Below, piece after piece: positions 4,820-37,514 of a stretch of 37,514 nt of DNA. Location: IMG/VR virus record IMGVR_UViG_2534681759_000011. One strand, written 5' to 3'. How positions within the stretch are numbered: position 1 is the stretch's first letter; each line of letters starts with the position of its first letter. A program made the translations under genes and the position numbers. The DNA comes from a virus (lineage: Duplodnaviria > Heunggongvirae > Uroviricota > Caudoviricetes). Under the pieces are notes generated by a model. The model did no database searches. It saw only the letters and a list, made by a program, of their open reading frames with translations, and was not told the origin of the DNA.

Positions 4820-5141
4820 GAAACCAGAACATGCACACACAAAAAAACCGCTTGCCATGCCGCAATCAGTCAGGTTACATTTCCGCTGCACCTCATAAAA
4901 CGGGTGCCGGGTTTCGCAGCCCGCTGACAAACGTAGCGCACAACCGCGCCAGCGGTTTTTTTGTGCGTACTGTATCGCCACGTCTTTTTCGCATCAGAAT
5001 TATGGTGGGGCGTACGGGGCCGACTTCGGTCGGGCCGGGTTCTGCGTTTGCCGGTACTGCGAACCTCGTACGTCTCGCCACCCACAGTTTCGCAGCTCTG
5101 GATGGTGAGTTTTCAAAACTTACACACGTAGAGGCCACACC

Positions 5142-5372
5142 ATGGCAAACCGCAAACAGCACCGCGCTATCGCGGAGCGTCGTCACATCCAGACTGAAAT
5201 CAACCGCAGACTTTCCCGCGCATCACGCGTCGCGCAAATCATGCACATCAATATGCTGCATGAGCGTAGCTGCGAACTTTCAAACCTCTATTCATCCGCT
5301 GTTTTCAGTTATCTGGCGGATGATCTGCGCGAGCTTCAGCAGCTCATCCAGCAGCAAAACAAACTCCATTAA
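5142..5372 (+). CDS. Hypothetical small basic protein (76 aa)
   Basis: Arg-rich N-terminus; follows a GC-rich structured intergenic region; weak RBS. Confidence 0.3.
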   Translation: MANRKQHRAIAERRHIQTEINRRLSRASRVAQIMHINMLHERSCELSNLYSSAVFSYLADDLRELQQLIQQQNKLH

Positions 5373-5444
5373 TTCCTGTTCCGGGCCTTTCCTGCACCTT
5401 GCGGCGGGAGGCCTTCGCACATCTGTAACAAGAGGATTGCCGCA

Positions 5445-7724
<2,280 letters not shown>

Positions 7725-7776: not shown

Positions 7777-10584
7777 ATGACGGCAGAGTACATCAGGGAC
7801 TGGCAGCAACCGCGCCACGCAGTGGGGCGTGAAGGAACGGGGATCCCCGCTCCTGAATCCGCGCTTTCCTCCTGGCTGGATGCCTACCGGGCAGAGAACG
7901 AGCGCTGCCAGGAAATGGCTGATGCGGCGTTCTCCGCCACGCCGCTGGGCAACCTGATTAATAAAAGCCTGGACGCACAGGAAAAACAGGACAAAACCAT
8001 CACACTGGCAGGAGACGCCAGAAAGCAGGTACGCGGCGCGGTGGATGAAGCCATGGCCTCGCTGCGCCTGCTGCCATCCTATCTGCGCGATCCGCTTATT
8101 CGCCACCTCTCCTTCCTGCGCAAAAAACAGGAATCTGACCGCCAGAAAGGTAAAAAGAACCAGCAGGCTGAACGCTACGCGCGCGGGACCCTGCGCAAAA
8201 TATTCGAACGTCTGGATCGCACTGACGGGCGCTGGCTGACACCGGGTTATCGCTCCCTTGCCGGGCGCGAACGCCTGGACGATTTGCTTTACCTGCCGCA
8301 GCTCAACAAGCACCAGATACAGACGCTGGCCACCATGACGGCGGCGATGTTCAGCAGCACCTTCGAAACACTCTGCGATGGCTTTGGTGCCAGAGATGGC
8401 GAGCTGACCATGGATGTAATGTTGAAGGCTTACCGGATGCTGGCCCGTATCGCATTACGCCTGCACATCATGCCGCCACATTACGAAGCCCTGAACAAGA
8501 GCGATCCGGATACGGAACTGTTACCGGGCGCAATCCTTCGCCTGACCTGTGCGGAATGGTGGAAACGCAAATTGTGGCTGTTACGTTGCGAGTGGAGAGA
8601 AGAACAACTCCGCGCCGCCTGTCTGGTTTCCAGAAAAACATCACCCTATCTGAGCCAGGACGCGTTAAGCGAGTTTCGCGCACAGCGCGAGAAAACACGC
8701 GATTTCCTGAAAAGTTTCATGCTGGAAAACGAAGACGGGTTCACGATTGATCTCGAGACAGTGTATTACGCGGGAGTAAGTAACCCGGTTCACCGTAAGG
8801 CAGAAATGATGGCCACCATGAAGGGGCTGGAACTTCTGGCCGAAGCCCGTGGCGACAAAGCGGTGTTTCTGACTGTCACCTGCCCGTCAAAATACCACGC
8901 CACAACAGAGAACGGTCATCCGAATCCCAAATGGAACGGGGCCACCATGCGCGACTCCAGCGATTACCTGGTTAACACGTTTTTTGCGGCGGTCCGCAAG
9001 AAACTGAACCGCGACGGCCTGCGCTGGTATGGCATCCGCACGGTGGAGCCTCACCATGACGGCACCGTGCACTGGCATATGATGGTCTTTGCACATCCGG
9101 ACGAGATTGAAACCATCGTGTCCCACGTCTGCGATATTGCCATTCAGGAAGACCGCCACGAGCTGGGCGATGACATAACTCCGCGTTTTAAGGCGGAGTA
9201 CGTAGACGGCTCAAAAGGCACACCAACCAGCTACATCGCCACCTACATCGGAAAGAACCTGGACAGCCGCGCCGTGGATGGCATCGACCAGAAAACGGGC
9301 AAGCCACGCGTTGACCACGAAACCGGAAAATCAATGGCCGAGAGCGTGGAACGCGCCATCGGCTGGGCGCGCCTTCACCGGGTCCGCCAGTTCCAGTTCT
9401 TTGGCATCCCCTCCCGTCAGGTGTGGCGTGAACTCCGCCGCCTTGCCAGCCAGATGGCACGCAACCCGGAAGGCCCGCAACGGCTGAAGGATGACGCAAT
9501 GGATGCGGTACTCGCTGCCGCTGATGCAGGATGTTTTGCCACCTACATAGAGAAACAGGGCGGCGTACTTGTTCCACGCAAAGACTACCTGATTCGCACC
9601 GCCTACGACCTCGCCGATGAGCTGAACGATTACGGCGAACAGAGCGTACAGATTTACGGGATCTGGTCACCACTCATCGGGGAATCCTCCCGTGTGTGCA
9701 CGCATCCGGATAACTGGAAGCTGGTAAGACGCAAACCGGAAGCGGAAGACAGCGCCCGCGAAAATGGTTTTGACCTTCAGGGCGGCCCTGCCGCCCCTTG
9801 GACTCGTGGCAATAACTGTCCCCGTGTACAGGAAACAGGCAACAGCGGGACAGAACAGTCGAAAGAACGGCCAGCACCGTGGCCGCAGCTTCCTGACGGC
9901 GTTGAAGTGAACGAATGGATGCGCTCACTGAAACGGCACGAACGCCGGGCGCTGATGCGTTCGCTTCGTGACAAACAGGCAAAAAACAGCAGTGATGAAA
10001 TGCAGAGCTGGACACAGAGCCGCAAACAGCAGCGGCCTTTGCCTGATAACCACGAATTACTCGCTAAAGAATGGCGGGAGTCTGCCGAATCTCTCGGCCT
10101 GCATATCGGTGAACAGCAGATGCAGCACCTGCTACGGGGCGGCAGCCTGTACGTTGACGGCAGCATCATTGCACCGCAGGGATATGAAATTGTACGCAAA
10201 CCGGATACCCGCCCGGACAGCCGAATCACGCAGCTCTGGCAGCACCTGAGCCGTAATCACGGCGTAAGCAGCACGGAGATCCGCCATAACCCGGTCGCCA
10301 GCTATCTGGCACAGCTGGGGGCATCAGACCCCGAAGCCGCCGCACGCCTGGCATCCGCACTTCAGCAGGATCAGAACACCATGAAAACACCCGTTACCGT
10401 GCTTTCTGACATGCTGCGCGCCATCCGCGACGCAGAGCACGCACAGAGAATCAGTGAAACCACTGAACGCGCCAGCCGCAAAGCAGACCTGCTGCAGGGT
10501 GGCCTGACCAGTGGAAACAAAAAACAGACAGAAACGGGATCCACAAATCCCGTAAATGAGCAAAAAACGCGCCGCGATATATGA
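7777..10584 (+). CDS. A: Rolling-circle replication initiation endonuclease, P2 gpA family (935 aa)
   Basis: HUH motif in EPHHDGTVHWHMMVF and catalytic tyrosine pair in YIATYIGKNLD; weak RBS, start immediately downstream of the IS. Confidence 0.85.
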   Translation: MTAEYIRDWQQPRHAVGREGTGIPAPESALSSWLDAYRAENERCQEMADAAFSATPLGNLINKSLDAQEKQDKTITLAGDARKQVRGAVDEAMASLRLLPSYLRDPLIRHLSFLRKKQESDRQKGKKNQQAERYARGTLRKIFERLDRTDGRWLTPGYRSLAGRERLDDLLYLPQLNKHQIQTLATMTAAMFSSTFETLCDGFGARDGELTMDVMLKAYRMLARIALRLHIMPPHYEALNKSDPDTELLPGAILRLTCAEWWKRKLWLLRCEWREEQLRAACLVSRKTSPYLSQDALSEFRAQREKTRDFLKSFMLENEDGFTIDLETVYYAGVSNPVHRKAEMMATMKGLELLAEARGDKAVFLTVTCPSKYHATTENGHPNPKWNGATMRDSSDYLVNTFFAAVRKKLNRDGLRWYGIRTVEPHHDGTVHWHMMVFAHPDEIETIVSHVCDIAIQEDRHELGDDITPRFKAEYVDGSKGTPTSYIATYIGKNLDSRAVDGIDQKTGKPRVDHETGKSMAESVERAIGWARLHRVRQFQFFGIPSRQVWRELRRLASQMARNPEGPQRLKDDAMDAVLAAADAGCFATYIEKQGGVLVPRKDYLIRTAYDLADELNDYGEQSVQIYGIWSPLIGESSRVCTHPDNWKLVRRKPEAEDSARENGFDLQGGPAAPWTRGNNCPRVQETGNSGTEQSKERPAPWPQLPDGVEVNEWMRSLKRHERRALMRSLRDKQAKNSSDEMQSWTQSRKQQRPLPDNHELLAKEWRESAESLGLHIGEQQMQHLLRGGSLYVDGSIIAPQGYEIVRKPDTRPDSRITQLWQHLSRNHGVSSTEIRHNPVASYLAQLGASDPEAAARLASALQQDQNTMKTPVTVLSDMLRAIRDAEHAQRISETTERASRKADLLQGGLTSGNKKQTETGSTNPVNEQKTRRDI

Positions 10585-10642
10585 AGCGCGCACAAAACAG
10601 GCGAAAGCGGGATTTAAAAATCCCGTAAACGGTTAATTAACC
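10534..10642. promoter_or_regulatory. Palindromic repeats: two copies of CGGGAT-N6-ATCCCGTAAA plus GGTTAATTAACC; candidate parC-like centromere/operator or ori element
   Basis: ACGGGATCCACAAATCCCGT at 10534-10553 (inside the 3' end of gene A), CGGGATTTAAAAATCCCG at 10608-10625, and the perfect palindrome GGTTAATTAACC at about 10630-10642, all just upstream of the parM-like start. Confidence 0.35.
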
Positions 10643-10660
10643 AACATAAGGAAAATCGAC

Positions 10661-11620
10661 ATGAAAATTTGTATCGACGACGGCTCCACCAACATCAAGC
10701 TGGCATGGACTGAGAACGGCGAACGCCGCAACGCCATCAGCCCGAACAGCTTCAAGTCGGAATGGTCTGCGCCGTTCGGTGGCACGCATCCCGCGAACTA
10801 CATGCTTGATGGCGTGCGCTATGGCTTTGATCCGGTCAGCGATCGTTTTGTCCAGACGACTGACACGCAATACCAGTACAGCGATGTGAATGTAATCGCC
10901 ATTCATCACGCGCTGGTCAAATCAGGCATCACGCCACAGGAGGTGGATGTGGTTGTCACCCTGCCACTGAGCGAGTATTTCGACACAAACGCACAGCCGG
11001 ACATGGCCAACATCAACCGCAAAAAAGCGAACGTCATGCGCCCGGTGGAGTACCAGAACGGCGAAGCATTCACTATCCGTAACGTACGGGTTATGCCTGA
11101 ATCCATTCCGGCTGGCTTTAAGGCACTGGCTGACATGAGTCCGTTTGAATCCCTGCTGATTGTGGATTTGGGCGGAACCACGCTGGATGTGGCAAAGGTT
11201 CAGGGGCAGCTGGCAGGTATCAGCCAGGTGTTTTGCGATCCAAACGTAGGCGTTTCCCTGATGGCTGATTCCGTGCTGTCGGTGATGGCCACTAACGGTA
11301 TGCGTACCAGTCACCACATCGCCAATACCATTATTGAGCACCGTCACGATGAAGCCTGGCTGCGCCAGCACATTCACAATGACGCGCATTACAACAGCCT
11401 GATGGCGGTTATTCGTGAAAAGGAGGAGACACTGAAACAACGAGTGATCCGCGCGCTGGCGGGTTTTTCCGGTTACGGGCGGGTGATGGTTGTCGGTGGA
11501 GGGGCGGAGATTGTGGCACCCGCTATCCGCGAAGCCTGCGGAGTTAATGCGACTTTCATCGCGGACGGGGTGCCACAGTTTGCTCTGGTTAATGGGCTGT
11601 ACGCAATGAACAAGGAGTAA
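10661..11620 (+). CDS. parM: Actin-like segregation ATPase, ParM/StbA family (319 aa)
   Basis: Actin-fold motifs IDDGSTNIK (phosphate 1), LIVDLGGTTLDV (phosphate 2) and MVVGGGAE (adenosine); remembered close similarity to plasmid R1 ParM. Confidence 0.85.
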   Translation: MKICIDDGSTNIKLAWTENGERRNAISPNSFKSEWSAPFGGTHPANYMLDGVRYGFDPVSDRFVQTTDTQYQYSDVNVIAIHHALVKSGITPQEVDVVVTLPLSEYFDTNAQPDMANINRKKANVMRPVEYQNGEAFTIRNVRVMPESIPAGFKALADMSPFESLLIVDLGGTTLDVAKVQGQLAGISQVFCDPNVGVSLMADSVLSVMATNGMRTSHHIANTIIEHRHDEAWLRQHIHNDAHYNSLMAVIREKEETLKQRVIRALAGFSGYGRVMVVGGGAEIVAPAIREACGVNATFIADGVPQFALVNGLYAMNKE

Positions 11621-11624
11621 ACCA

Positions 11625-11936
11625 ATGACGACACCAACCAGAAGAATAAGTTTCTATCTGAAGCCAGCTGCCGTCAAGAACGAAGGAGAAGCATGCGCAT
11701 GGCTGGACAGCCTTACACCAGAAGCCCGCAAAAGCGGCCAACGCGTGGCTTTTCTGGCCGGGCTGGCACTTCTGAAGACGAATCCGGCAGAGGCTTACCG
11801 ACTGGCCGCATGGGCTGATGATGAGATGTTACCTGTGACACAAATCAGCTCAAAAAAGTTTGAAGCACAGTCTGCACCAGTGGCTAAGATAACCAGCCAG
11901 ATGGCTGGGAATATCCGGGCGTTATTTCCTGGGTAA
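11625..11936 (+). CDS. parR: ParR-like centromere-binding adaptor protein (103 aa)
   Basis: Immediately downstream of parM; N-terminal RISFYLKP and AFLAGLALL segments resemble R1 ParR. Confidence 0.55.
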   Translation: MTTPTRRISFYLKPAAVKNEGEACAWLDSLTPEARKSGQRVAFLAGLALLKTNPAEAYRLAAWADDEMLPVTQISSKKFEAQSAPVAKITSQMAGNIRALFPG

Positions 11937-12198
11937 AAGCATCTGCGCGAAAAATGCTCACATTTATAGAAACAGTATCATTCCATTTGGCGCACTTACT
12001 TCAATAATCGATCTGTTAAACAAATAGATTGTCTATTATCTATCGATTAAAACGATCAATTATCTTGACAGTAATGTGCCTTTTTGTAAGATCGTTCGCA
12101 TTGTGAGCGACAAGATAATTGCGCGGCATTGTCCATGCAAAACGCCCCAATAGCAGCAACTATTGGGGCGTAGAACTCGGTCGGACTCACTTAACCTG

Positions 12199-12284
12199 AT
12201 ATGCGTGCCTTCCGAAGTAAATCAAAATGTGCGTCGTATATTTTATTGCTTACACGCACCTCTGTAAAGGCACGCATATTTTTC
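12199..12284 (+). other. Structured leader ending in a T-run directly upstream of the 12301 ORF (attenuator-like or small RNA 3' end)
   Basis: ATATGCGTGCCTT (12199-12212) pairs with AAGGCACGCATAT (12266-12278) followed by TTTTT; inner hairpin GTGCGT…ACGCAC; an 11-bp perfect hairpin CGCCCCAATAG/CTATTGGGGCG lies at about 12139-12166; candidate sigma70 promoter TTGACA at about 12066. Confidence 0.3.
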
Positions 12285-12300
12285 CTATGAGGTAAATAAA

Positions 12301-12570
12301 GTGCGGGCTAAAACAGGTATTTGCAAGAACCCTCATCGTTATAACCCAACATTTCTGTCTCTCCCTGAATATCAAGGACAAGAAGGTCGGCACAAATGCG
12401 CTGCCTGTGCTTTTGAGCTAGGCATAAAAGATGCGCTTGAAGGACGCGCTATGGCTCAGAATGATTTAGTTTTAGCTAACATTCCGTTTAGCCAGGCTGG
12501 AACTGTAAGGCACAGAGATGCTTATGAAGCATATGTTCGTGGTTGGCGATTAATACACAGCAACAATTGA
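12301..12570 (+). CDS. Small Cys/His-rich protein of unknown function (89 aa)
   Basis: GTG start with RBS GAGG at 12289; pattern C-x4-H…H-x-C-x2-C suggests metal binding; followed by a strong terminator. Confidence 0.45.
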   Translation: MRAKTGICKNPHRYNPTFLSLPEYQGQEGRHKCAACAFELGIKDALEGRAMAQNDLVLANIPFSQAGTVRHRDAYEAYVRGWRLIHSNN

Positions 12571-13029: not shown

Positions 13030-13130
13030 GCGAAGCAGCAGACAAGCGAAGCGCGTCAGCGATACGGCACCTTGCCGACCATACTTCGTAAGTGCAAAAT
13101 ACGAGCAAAGAAATCAATGGAGGCTGTCTT

Positions 13131-13655
13131 ATGGTCATTAATTACAAGCAGTTAAGAGAAAAACGGGAGCAGGTAAAGGAGAGCTTTCGCCGCAATGAAG
13201 ATCTGACCCCGCTTGTACGCCTTGCCCAGGGCATTGTTGATGCTTATGAAATCTCGCTGGAGCTGCCATCACAGACCTGGACAGATAGCGACGGTAATCG
13301 CCAGCATTACGTTTCATGCGGACTGGAAGCAGCCGAAGGATTTCGCAGAATGCCTTTATCTCAGATCCCTGCCGCTACCCCCAAAGCAAGGGGCGGCAAT
13401 GATGAGCGAAAACTGATTTTCAGCATTGAGACAGTGGTTGACGACACACCTGGCGAAGTCGCCTTCGTGCATACTCCTCTTTCGATCGCAATGTATAACG
13501 ATGAAATACAGGTTCGCGTTAATAATAATATCGTGCCACTTAAAGAAGGTAATTCACCCTACACCACCGTTTGTGAAGCCATTCAATATTACGTTTTCTC
13601 TGAAATTGATAATCTCAAGCCTGACGGCACCCAGAAAATGGTTCAGCTCTGGTAA
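13131..13655 (+). CDS. Uncharacterised protein (174 aa) between the putative cos region and the portal gene
   Basis: ATG at 13131 with RBS GGAGG at 13119-13123; AT-rich compared with neighbouring structural genes; convergent with portal gene; no recognisable motif. Confidence 0.5.
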   Translation: MVINYKQLREKREQVKESFRRNEDLTPLVRLAQGIVDAYEISLELPSQTWTDSDGNRQHYVSCGLEAAEGFRRMPLSQIPAATPKARGGNDERKLIFSIETVVDDTPGEVAFVHTPLSIAMYNDEIQVRVNNNIVPLKEGNSPYTTVCEAIQYYVFSEIDNLKPDGTQKMVQLW

Positions 13656-37373: not shown

Positions 37374-37514
37374 ATGTCGCAAAAATCGCTTACGGCCATC
37401 ACGTTCTGCGTGACGGTAATCCTCATCATCTGGATGCTGCACGGTTCGCTGTGTGAAATACGGATGAGCTTCTGGGGAGCGGAGTTTGCGGCGTTCTTAC
37501 AGTGTAAGCAGTAA
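37374..37514 (+). CDS. Hok/Gef-family type I toxin (46 aa)
   Basis: MSQKSLTAITFCVTVILIIWMLHGSLCEIRMSFWGAEFAAFLQCKQ: one transmembrane helix followed by the Hok hallmark SLCEIR; RBS AAGGAG; GC-rich structured leader 37200-37373; below the ORF-track length threshold. Confidence 0.7.
   Translation: MSQKSLTAITFCVTVILIIWMLHGSLCEIRMSFWGAEFAAFLQCKQ

What the first reader, a model, noticed from the sequence alone, without database searches (positions are those of the whole stretch)
10534..11936. Actin-type partition cassette (ParM/ParR-like with palindromic sites) inside an integrative P2-like prophage
The 319-aa protein carries all actin-fold ATPase motifs and aligns from memory with plasmid R1 ParM. 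It is followed by a ParR-sized protein and preceded by two copies of CGGGAT-N6-ATCCCGTAAA plus GGTTAATTAACC. This is a plasmid-type segregation system sitting in the variable cargo region that P2 fills with tin and old, between gene A and cos. An integrating, rolling-circle-replicating P2-like phage has no obvious need for it. Either the element can persist as a phage-plasmid (the hok-like gene at the other end fits plasmid stabilisation), or the filament system has been co-opted, for example for DNA positioning or exclusion.
Basis: partly seen in the sequence, partly recalled or inferred. Interest (0 to 1): 0.65.

Follow-up and report, generated by a model that had tools for sequence, protein, structure and literature searches.

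The report
ParMRC partition cassette in P2-like prophage
A complete plasmid-style DNA-segregation system (actin-like ParM, adaptor ParR, two binding-site repeats) is a fixed, selected core module of the P88-like family of integrating P2-like phages found in about a quarter of E. coli genomes, not accidental cargo, and most likely moves the phage's free circular DNA.

Summary
ORF 10661-11620 is a full-length ParM (Pfam StbA_N 3e-82 plus ParM C-domain 3e-68; R1 ParM structure 1MWK at E=2e-92). ORF 11625-11936 is a ParR/StbB (PF10784, 1e-24-range). Two exact CGGGAT-N6-ATCCCG sites lie 73 bp apart upstream.

The window is a P88-like (Xuanwuvirus) prophage. The cassette is in 14 of 14 phage records with this gene A and in 1304 of 5426 complete E. 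coli genomes, against about 1385 with the gene A type. The variable hotspot begins only after the parR stop. ParM is under strong purifying selection (dN/dS 0.06-0.11).

ParM relatives at 53-63% identity sit at the same place, after gene A, in P2-like prophages of Plesiomonas, Hafnia, Serratia and Enterobacter. The two-site centromere keeps its core, position and 72-73 bp spacing in three of these lineages.

1450 of 1452 E. coli copies are chromosomal, so a stable phage-plasmid lifestyle is not supported.

The best reading is a working type II partition machine acting on the transient extrachromosomal phage circle. Known analogues are SXT/R391 srpMRC and CGP3 AlpAC. I class it as a new member of a known kind. 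It is annotated in databases, but the papers I searched did not study it.

The parts
10518..10556 (+). Repeat unit 1 of the candidate centromere. It contains inverted-repeat site 1, CGGGATCCACAAATCCCG (10535-10552), and lies inside the last codons of gene A.
   Evidence: Exact palindrome within a 39-nt direct repeat. The core [CT]GGG-N10-CCC[GA] is at -126 from the parM ATG here, -132 in Plesiomonas and -129 in Hafnia. Arms are mostly kept and the spacer varies among 89 copies.
10591..10629 (+). Repeat unit 2 of the candidate centromere. It contains inverted-repeat site 2, CGGGATTTAAAAATCCCG (10608-10625), and is intergenic, 53 nt before parM.
   Evidence: The equivalent site is at -60 in Plesiomonas and -56 in Hafnia, and site spacing is 73/72/73 bp. 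The motif is absent from plasmid, ICE and D6 parMR loci and from related phages that lack parMR.
10631..10642 (+). AT-rich palindrome GGTTAATTAACC, just before the ribosome-binding site. Its role is unknown; it could be a promoter element or a further protein site.
   Evidence: Sequence. The core TTAATTAA is invariant in 89 copies; most copies read GATTAATTAATC and the window form is a minority. An ATTAATCAA box is conserved in Plesiomonas and Hafnia. No sigma-70 consensus match was found.
10661..11620 (+). parM: actin-fold filament-forming ATPase of the ParM/StbA family.
   Evidence: Pfam, PHROG 691 'partition protein', R1 ParM at E=2e-92. dN/dS is 0.06-0.11. Identity to any true plasmid ParM is at most 52%. 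It forms a clade with other P2-like prophage ParMs.
11625..11936 (+). parR: centromere-binding adaptor with an N-terminal ribbon-helix-helix-type region, a variable linker and a C-terminal ParM-binding motif.
   Evidence: Pfam PF10784. In the alignment with R1-type ParR, RRISFYLKP matches RRTIAFKLNP, QRVAFLAGLAL matches NRAALTAGLAL, and C-terminal GNIRALFPG (KKNIQxFFP in other alleles) matches KKNAMKLIN. Residues 1-68 and 91-103 are under purifying selection; linker 69-90 evolves about neutrally.
7777..10584 (+). Gene A: rolling-circle replication endonuclease (935 aa). It is the constant upstream partner of the cassette.
   Evidence: Pfam Phage_GPA E=8e-129. A GPA gene lies upstream of parMR, directly or one to two small ORFs away, in all five P2-like lineages examined. 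No terminator or promoter consensus was found between A and parM.
37374..37514 (+). hok/gef-family toxin ORF, cut by the window end. It is a possible co-operating stabiliser and is not part of the cassette.
   Evidence: Pfam HOK_GEF E=3.7e-7. It is also annotated in P88 and in the free-circle record.

Best explanation
This is a functional type II (ParMRC) DNA-segregation machine that belongs to the replication module of P88-like and related P2-like temperate phages.

Proposed mechanism:
1. ParR dimers, through their N-terminal beta-strand (TRRISFYL), bind the two inverted-repeat sites 73 bp apart. That spacing is seven helical turns, so the sites are on the same face of the DNA. Binding forms a small partition complex (inferred).
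2. The ParR C-terminal motif captures the ends of ATP-ParM filaments (inferred from conservation of the R1 motif).
3. Growing ParM filaments push copies of the circular phage genome apart.

The cassette directly follows gene A, with no recognisable promoter or terminator in between. It is therefore probably made together with the replication protein from the early operon, when the genome is free and replicating, and not in the repressed integrated state (inferred).

The likely benefit is that the non-integrated or excised circle is distributed to both daughter cells until it integrates. This would raise lysogenisation and reduce loss, together with the hok-type toxin. SXT/R391 integrative elements do the same thing with relaxase-driven replication, srpMRC and a toxin-antitoxin pair.
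For: Shown:
- Family identity of both proteins, with intact ATPase motifs.
- Strong purifying selection on ParM and on the two functional ends of ParR.
- 87 of 89 sampled copies are intact.
- The cassette is in 14 of 14 lineage phage records and in about 94% of E. coli genomes with this gene A type.
- The same gene order, A then parM then parR then cargo then portal, occurs in P2-like prophages of four other genera with ParM only 53-63% identical.
- The phage ParMs cluster together.
- The two-site motif is kept in core, position and spacing across three lineages, and a different repeat goes with a different ParR beta-strand in the Serratia/Enterobacter lineage.
- No promoter or terminator consensus lies between A and parM.
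- A circular 34,461-bp record closed across the attachment site shows that the free circle exists in cultures. An identical phage is integrated in another strain.

Against: - No binding, filament or stabilisation experiment exists for this cassette in the papers searched.
- In P2-type switches, cells that choose lysogeny shut the early promoter off quickly, so little ParMR might be made in exactly the cells where inheritance matters.
- Promoter absence rests on a simple consensus scan. An autoregulated weak promoter overlapping site 2 cannot be excluded.
- Within the E. coli lineage, the intergenic region is no more conserved than synonymous sites. About 20-40% of copies carry a one-base arm change.
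- In this particular window an IS21-family element separates gene A from the upstream early genes, so expression in this copy may be altered.
Confidence: 0.5

Rival explanations
1. Lytic-cycle DNA organiser, like AlpAC. The same ParR/ParM machinery acts after infection or induction to move or disperse replicating phage circles inside the cell. The payoff is efficient replication and packaging rather than inheritance by daughter cells.
For: The cassette lies in the early replication module directly after gene A and is apparently co-transcribed. In the integrated prophage CGP3, an actin-like protein and its DNA adaptor are early-induced and needed for efficient phage DNA replication (PMC4446434). 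P2-type replication yields many monomeric circles (established knowledge). Purifying selection fits any function that benefits the phage.
Against: The lytic cycle is short, and most P2-like phages, including P2, 186-like phages and the 368 other GPA-bearing records, do without such a system. Co-occurrence with a hok-type stabiliser fits inheritance better. There is no direct data either way.
Confidence: 0.28
2. True phage-plasmid. These phages can persist long-term as low-copy plasmids, replicated by gene A, partitioned by ParMRC and enforced by Hok, as an alternative to integration.
For: One complete circular 34,461-bp 'plasmid' record is closed at the attachment site. Two phage records were deposited as separate replicons of genome assemblies. 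In Plesiomonas, the parM-bearing end of a 32-kb contig carries an integrase and P2-like phage genes. The replication, partition and toxin triad resembles a plasmid maintenance set.
Against: 1450 of 1452 E. coli copies are chromosomal. The other 'plasmid' hits are 227 kb to 1.4 Mb records with an inserted prophage, plus one 26.8-kb linear partial record. An integrase is always present, and phiSM was shown to integrate at pdxB (PMC6456863). Free circles in assemblies are expected from spontaneous induction. The strain that yielded the circle is not in the searchable genome set, so an empty attachment site could not be checked.
Confidence: 0.1
3. Exclusion or interference cargo. The prophage expresses ParR/ParM to disturb partition of incoming plasmids or related phages, or as an anti-phage defence. 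That would fit the defence hotspot it borders.
For: It lies next to the hotspot between gene A and the portal gene, where cargo turns over rapidly. parR shows several divergent alleles and a fast-evolving linker.
Against: No PADLOC defence model matches ParM, ParR or the neighbouring ORFs. The cassette is constant rather than variable. The centromere motif is absent from the plasmid parMR loci examined, so cross-binding is unlikely. It probably is not expressed from the repressed prophage (inference).
Confidence: 0.05
4. Inert remnant of a past plasmid-phage recombination that is simply carried along.
For: None beyond the lack of experimental data.
Against: dN/dS is 0.06-0.11. 87 of 89 copies are intact. 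There is no close plasmid donor, with identity at most 52%. The position is conserved across five P2-like lineages whose gene A proteins are only 30-55% identical.
Confidence: 0.02

Closest known systems
Plasmid R1/NR1 parMRC (stbAB) type II partition system
   Same: Same gene order: centromere, then parM, then parR. ParM aligns full-length with R1 ParM (E=2e-92, about 46-48% identity). ParR shares the N-terminal DNA-binding strand and helix and the C-terminal ParM-binding motif.
   Different: The host replicon is an integrating P2-like phage. ParR is shorter (103 versus 117 aa) and undetectable by tblastn in true plasmids. The centromere is two inverted-repeat sites 73 bp apart, one of them inside the gene A coding end. 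R1-type parC has ten direct iterons flanking a promoter (pHK17a upstream region; the iteron count is from established knowledge). No recognisable promoter lies within it.
srpMRC of SXT/R391 integrative conjugative elements (PMC4489591)
   Same: An actin-type partition system on an element that integrates, replicates by a rolling-circle initiator when excised, and also carries a toxin-antitoxin stabiliser. The centromere is small, with a few direct and inverted repeats upstream of the ATPase gene.
   Different: SrpM and SrpR are only distantly related to R1 ParM/ParR according to that paper, whereas this ParM is a close R1-type relative. The element here is a phage, so de-repression normally ends in lysis. 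Homology to SrpM was not tested here.
AlpAC/alpS of Corynebacterium glutamicum prophage CGP3 (PMC4446434)
   Same: An integrated prophage encodes an actin-like filament former and a DNA adaptor that binds sites upstream of the operon. Both are early genes.
   Different: AlpC is a distant actin-like protein in an actinobacterium. Its shown role is efficient phage DNA replication, not inheritance. The gene order and adaptor family differ.
StbA/StbB of phage-plasmid D6 (P1-like)
   Same: It is the only other phage in 50,697 records with an R1-type ParM at E<1e-10 (48% identity). Its annotators noted the similarity to P88 StbA.
   Different: D6 is a plasmid prophage. Its upstream region has TCTCA-type direct iterons, and its ParM groups with the R1/ICE types rather than the P2-like phage clade.

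Membership tests
Type II (ParMRC) partition system | Actin-fold ATPase of the ParM/StbA family with intact nucleotide-binding motifs | tested here: met
   Pfam StbA_N 3.3e-82 and ParM C-domain 3.4e-68. R1 ParM 1MWK at E=2.3e-92 over residues 2-316, with DDGSTNIK, PESIPAG, DLGGTTLD and GGGAE conserved.
Type II (ParMRC) partition system | Small adaptor (ParR) encoded immediately downstream, with an N-terminal DNA-binding region of the StbB/ParR family | tested here: met
   Pfam PF10784 E=9.8e-24 and PHROG 2515. The N-terminus aligns with R1-type, IncF, IncI and D6 ParR. The ribbon-helix-helix fold itself was not modelled.
Type II (ParMRC) partition system | ParR C-terminal motif that binds ParM filament ends | tested here: inconclusive
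   The C-terminal motif (KK)NI(R/Q)xLFP aligns with R1 KKNAMKLIN and IncF RNNIKNLFP and is under purifying selection. Binding was not testable.
Type II (ParMRC) partition system | Repeated ParR-binding centromere immediately upstream of parM | tested here: inconclusive
   Two repeated inverted-repeat sites are present and conserved in position and spacing in three lineages. A different repeat goes with a different ParR strand in a fourth lineage. ParR binding was not tested.
R1-type parC architecture specifically | About ten direct 11-bp iterons in two blocks flanking the par promoter | tested here: not met
   Only two sites are present, they are inverted repeats, and no promoter consensus was found. 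Contrast the iteron-rich upstream regions of pHK17a, ICE and plasmid-like loci.
Type II (ParMRC) partition system | Stabilises a replicon; ParM forms dynamic filaments | not testable with these tools
   Needs plasmid-stability assays and microscopy.
Phage-plasmids (P1, N15, SSU5, D6 types) | Prophage maintained extrachromosomally in lysogens | tested here: not met
   1450 of 1452 E. coli copies are on chromosomes. There is one free 34.5-kb circle record.
Phage-plasmids (P1, N15, SSU5, D6 types) | Plasmid-type replication initiator and no dependence on integration | tested here: not met
   The only replication initiator identified is the P2-type GPA endonuclease, although not every ORF in the window was scanned. 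A tyrosine integrase is present at 1-1002.
Variable cargo / defence genes of the P2 gene A-cos hotspot (tin, old and similar) | Presence varies between closely related phages; matches defence families | tested here: not met
   The cassette is constant in 14 of 14 phage records and 87 of 89 copies. Variability starts after the parR stop. There are no PADLOC hits.
Integrative elements with actin-type DNA movers (SXT/R391 srpMRC, CGP3 AlpAC) | Integrase, rolling-circle initiator, actin-like ATPase, adaptor and upstream repeats on one integrating element | tested here: met
   Integrase, GPA, ParM and ParR, repeats. This is a functional grouping, not a homology family; sequence relation to SrpM or AlpC was not tested.

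The most novel reading that the evidence does not exclude
P88-like and related P2-like phages have an unrecognised facultative plasmid-like (carrier) phase. The free circle would be replicated at low level by gene A, actively partitioned by ParMRC and enforced by Hok. If so, a quarter of E. coli genomes carry an element that sits between integrative prophage and phage-plasmid, with a phage-specific ParM clade and its own two-site centromere type.
Probability: 0.12. Interest if true: 0.75.

Novelty: new member of a known kind. Interest (0 to 1): 0.42.

Why it matters
Type II partition is the textbook plasmid-segregation machine. Here it is a conserved, selected core module of a very common family of integrating coliphages, present in about 24% of complete E. 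coli genomes, and of related P2-like prophages in at least four other genera.

That points to a step in temperate-phage biology that is rarely considered: handling of the free, replicating genome before integration or packaging. It extends to tailed phages of E. coli the idea, shown for SXT/R391 elements and for CGP3, that integrating elements still need plasmid-like functions.

The system is directly testable in a tractable host, because P88 and phiSM plate on K-12. It also offers a compact two-site centromere for comparison with R1 parC.

Tried and rejected
- **P2 replication nick site and P2 cos (both recalled from memory).** Neither has a match in the window at up to 3 mismatches. I could not locate ori or cos, and could not test whether the repeats relate to ori.
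- **Defence-system reading.** PADLOC gave no hits for ParM, ParR or three neighbouring ORFs.
- **NCBIfam.** Only sub-threshold hits to ParM equivalogs. This is a divergent clade, not the R1 equivalog.
- **ParR against solved structures.** No hit even at E=10.
- **Rfam on the whole window.** Nothing in the cassette; only C4 and isrK elsewhere.
- **Genome-collection scan with the single ParM protein.** The deeper distribution came instead from the protein search and contig look-ups.
- **Test for an empty attachment site in the strain that yielded the free circle.** That strain is not in the searchable E. coli set, and only an identical integrated copy in another strain was found.
- **Covariation of site variants with ParR alleles inside the E. 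coli lineage.** None was found. The alleles share the same N-terminal strand, so the test is uninformative there. The between-lineage comparison was informative.
- **Literature.** The P88 paper does not mention the cassette. The phiSM paper only lists it as a 'fitness' gene. The D6 paper is not held. The three CP-933T papers checked in their main text do not mention the cassette; supplementary tables and a fourth hit were not examined.
- **Terminator reading of the palindromes.** Rejected, because there is no T-run after the stems on the + strand.

Full report
**1. What is in the sequence**

- The ORF at 10661-11620 (+, 319 aa) matches Pfam StbA_N (E=3.3e-82) and the ParM C-terminal domain (E=3.4e-68).
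- It aligns end to end with the solved R1 ParM (1MWK, E=2.3e-92). The phosphate-binding and adenosine motifs are intact.
- Four bases after its stop, ORF 11625-11936 (+, 103 aa) matches Pfam Plasmid_stab_B (E=9.8e-24). PHROGs calls both proteins 'partition protein'.
- Upstream, CGGGAT-N6-ATCCCG occurs exactly twice in the window, at 10535-10552 and 10608-10625.
- Both copies sit in a 39-nt direct repeat with a 73-bp period.
- GGTTAATTAACC follows at 10631-10642.
- Site 1 lies within the last codons of gene A (7777-10584, Phage_GPA E=8e-129).

**2. What the element is**

- The window is a P88-like prophage (Peduoviridae, genus Xuanwuvirus).
- The cassette region matches 14 phage records at 94-96% identity, including P88, P884B11 and phiSM.
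- It matches 1304 of 5426 complete E. coli genomes, and 1450 of the 1452 places are chromosomal.
- P88's record shows the standard P2-like layout: integrase, C/Cox, early genes, replication endonuclease, ParM, partition protein, a few small genes, then portal and terminase.
- The window also has a tyrosine integrase at 1-1002 and a hok/gef ORF at 37374-37514.

**3. Core module, not cargo**

- Gene A of this type is found in 1444 E. coli genomes, about 1385 of them at 90% identity or more. That compares with 1304 genomes carrying the cassette.
- Among 50,697 phage records, exactly 14 have a gene A protein at 80% identity or more. They are the same 14 that carry ParM.
- The only other phage with an R1-type ParM is the phage-plasmid D6, at 48% identity.
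- The next gene A relatives (42-44% identity: Salmonella SEN8, Klebsiella phages) have a small ORF and a DinI-like gene after A, and no parMR.
- In 89 copies, from 80 IMG/VR loci plus others, ParM is a full 319 aa in 87.
- Homology between relatives stops at the parR stop codon. The first 1 kb beyond it falls into 25 unrelated clusters among 77 loci.
- So the fast-turnover hotspot starts after parR, and parMR lies on the constant side of it.

**4. Selection and origin**

- ParM has dN/dS of 0.06-0.11 against nine relatives.
- ParR residues 1-68 and 91-103 are under purifying selection. The linker, residues 69-90, changes at about the neutral rate. This fits a DNA-binding head, a flexible linker and a ParM-binding tail.
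- At least three parR alleles exist. They share the first 18 residues, with a homology break about 55 nt into the gene.
- No true plasmid among more than 5000 ParM-bearing plasmid records has a ParM above 52% identity.
- The ParR is undetectable by tblastn outside prophage-bearing records.
- This is therefore not a recent capture from a plasmid.

**5. Wider distribution**

- A protein search found intermediate relatives. Their contigs show the same arrangement in P2-like prophages:

| Host | ParM identity |
|---|---|
| Plesiomonas shigelloides | 63% |
| Hafnia | 62% |
| Serratia | 58% |
| Enterobacter | 53% |

- In each case parMR follows a Phage_GPA gene, directly or after one or two small ORFs. 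It is followed by unrelated cargo and then by portal and terminase.
- The gene A proteins of these phages are only 30-55% identical to the window's, while the ParMs are 53-63% identical.
- In a neighbour-joining tree the five phage ParMs cluster together. They are separate from the IncF/IncI types and from the R1, ICE and D6 types. The tree has no bootstrap support and is indicative only.
- Relatives at about 50% identity in Dickeya and Mangrovibacter lie in conjugative or plasmid-like regions instead.

**6. The candidate centromere**

Across three diverged lineages the same architecture recurs:

| Lineage | Site positions from parM ATG | Spacing |
|---|---|---|
| Window | -126 and -53 | 73 bp |
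| Plesiomonas | -132 and -60 | 72 bp |
| Hafnia | -129 and -56 | 73 bp |

- The site core is [CT]GGG-N10-CCC[GA]. The surrounding 180 nt are only 52-55% identical.
- With a per-position pattern frequency of about 6e-5, two hits at matching offsets in each extra lineage is about a 1e-7 event.
- These three lineages share the ParR strand TRR(I/V)SFYL.
- The Serratia and Enterobacter lineage has NRKISFYL and a different motif. It is a 19-nt inverted repeat, GGGAACGAWATAGAAAAAT-N27-ATTTTTCTRTTTCGTTCCC.
- ICE, plasmid and D6 loci have direct TCTC-type iterons.
- The CGGGAT motif is absent from plasmid loci and from related phages that lack parMR.
- Within the E. coli lineage the evidence is weaker. 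The arms are mostly kept and the spacers vary, but 20-40% of copies carry a one-base arm change. Overall intergenic divergence is about the same as synonymous divergence.
- An AT-rich box (TTAATTAA here, ATTAATCAA in the other lineages) just before the ribosome-binding site is also conserved. Its role is open.
- ParR binding to any of these sites is inferred, not shown.

**7. Expression context (inferred)**

- The consensus scan found no sigma-70-like promoter and no + strand terminator between gene A and parM.
- The simplest reading is co-transcription with gene A from the early operon, which is active on infection or induction and silent in the repressed prophage.
- A weak ParR-controlled promoter overlapping site 2 cannot be excluded.

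**8. How it most likely works**

- The parts list is that of a working ParMRC. ParR on the two same-face sites forms the partition complex, its conserved C-terminal motif captures ParM filaments, and filament growth separates copies of the circular genome.
- The module rides with the rolling-circle initiator and is probably expressed only when the genome is free. Its substrate is therefore the extrachromosomal circle, not the integrated prophage.
- Two published systems show that such a need exists in integrating elements:
  - srpMRC stabilises the excised, relaxase-replicated ICE R391, alongside a toxin-antitoxin pair, using a centromere of four short direct and inverted repeats (PMC4489591).
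  - AlpAC of the integrated prophage CGP3 links phage DNA to actin-like filaments and is needed for efficient replication (PMC4446434).
- I favour the inheritance benefit: keeping the circle in both daughters until integration, which reduces loss. My confidence is about 0.5. The reasons are the hok partner and the fact that most P2-like phages replicate lytically without such a system.
- The AlpAC-like replication or positioning role is the main rival, at about 0.28.

**9. Phage-plasmid reading**

- A circular 34,461-bp 'plasmid' record is a whole P88-like genome closed at the attachment site.
- Two phage records came from genome assemblies as separate replicons.
- An identical phage is integrated in another strain of the same study series.
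- Against this, 1450 of 1452 E. coli copies are chromosomal. Integrases are always present, and phiSM integrates at pdxB (PMC6456863).
- Free circles are expected from spontaneous induction.
- A stable plasmid lifestyle is therefore unsupported but not excluded (about 0.1).

**10. Novelty**

- The genes are already annotated as ParM and partition protein in RefSeq and GenBank. The D6 annotators noted the similarity to P88 StbA.
- None of the papers found discusses the cassette's function, its conservation across P2-like phages or its centromere.
- Conceptually it joins known cases of actin-type DNA movers on integrating elements, so I class it as a new member of a known kind.
- The points of interest are its abundance (about one E. 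coli genome in four), a phage-specific ParM clade, a compact two-site centromere partly inside the replication gene, and easy experimental access.

Noticed in passing
window 5863-7665: An IS21-family element (an rve-domain IstA-like ORF at 5863-6792 and IstB at 6883-7665) sits between the 134-aa early ORF (5445-5849) and gene A. The otherwise 99.9% identical cassette in E. coli H10407 has no such insertion upstream of gene A. In this copy the early operon may be interrupted.
   Followed up: partly
window 4888-5085: Rfam finds isrK (4888-4962) and a C4 antisense RNA (4998-5085) on the + strand. Both overlap the start of ORF 4831-5448, which has a weak Phage_ASH match. This looks like a P1/P7-type c4-antirepressor control module in the early region.
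   Followed up: no
window 12057-12300: Just after parR there are convergent promoter-like sites (+ 12065-12092, - 12268-12240) around a perfect 12-bp stem-loop (12142-12171). On the - strand the stem-loop is followed by a T-run. This could be a small antisense RNA module ahead of ORF 12301-12570 (PHROG 3941, unknown function).
   Followed up: no
window 12301-12570 and 13092-13655: The hotspot cargo in this copy is two ORFs of unknown function (PHROG 3941 and PHROG 5091), with no Pfam, NCBIfam or PADLOC match. Other copies carry KAP NTPase, HicAB, IS1, DUF3800 and other genes at the same place.
   Followed up: partly
window 11625-11936; L003, L009: parR exists in at least three alleles (about 83-85%, 55% and 49% identical). 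They share the first 18 residues, and homology breaks about 55 nt into the gene, while the adjacent parM stays 97-98% identical. The linker (residues 69-90) evolves at about the neutral rate.
   Followed up: partly
L006 (NZ_CP148288.1, whole record): A 34,461-bp circular 'plasmid' of an E. coli cat isolate is a complete P88-like phage genome closed across the attachment site. An identical prophage is integrated in the chromosome of human isolate Z1323HEC0067 from the same series.
   Followed up: partly
L005 (NZ_JBQPOM010000071.1): A 226-kb contig labelled Vagococcus sp. WN89Y carries a cassette 97% identical to the E. coli one. It is probably a contaminating enterobacterial contig in that assembly.
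   Followed up: no
L101 7880-7990; L102 5885-5960; L106 1220-1300: The Serratia and Enterobacter P2-like prophages have a second centromere type upstream of parM. It is a 19-nt inverted repeat, GGGAACGAWATAGAAAAAT-N27-ATTTTTCTRTTTCGTTCCC, followed by a CCG..TTTAAACGG palindrome. It goes with a ParR strand NRKISFYL.
   Followed up: partly
window 7777-10584: Gene A is 935 aa, but the Phage_GPA domain covers only residues 179-498. The C-terminal 440 residues or so match only PHROGs of unknown function, and this is the part that differs most from P2 and 186-type A proteins.
   Followed up: no
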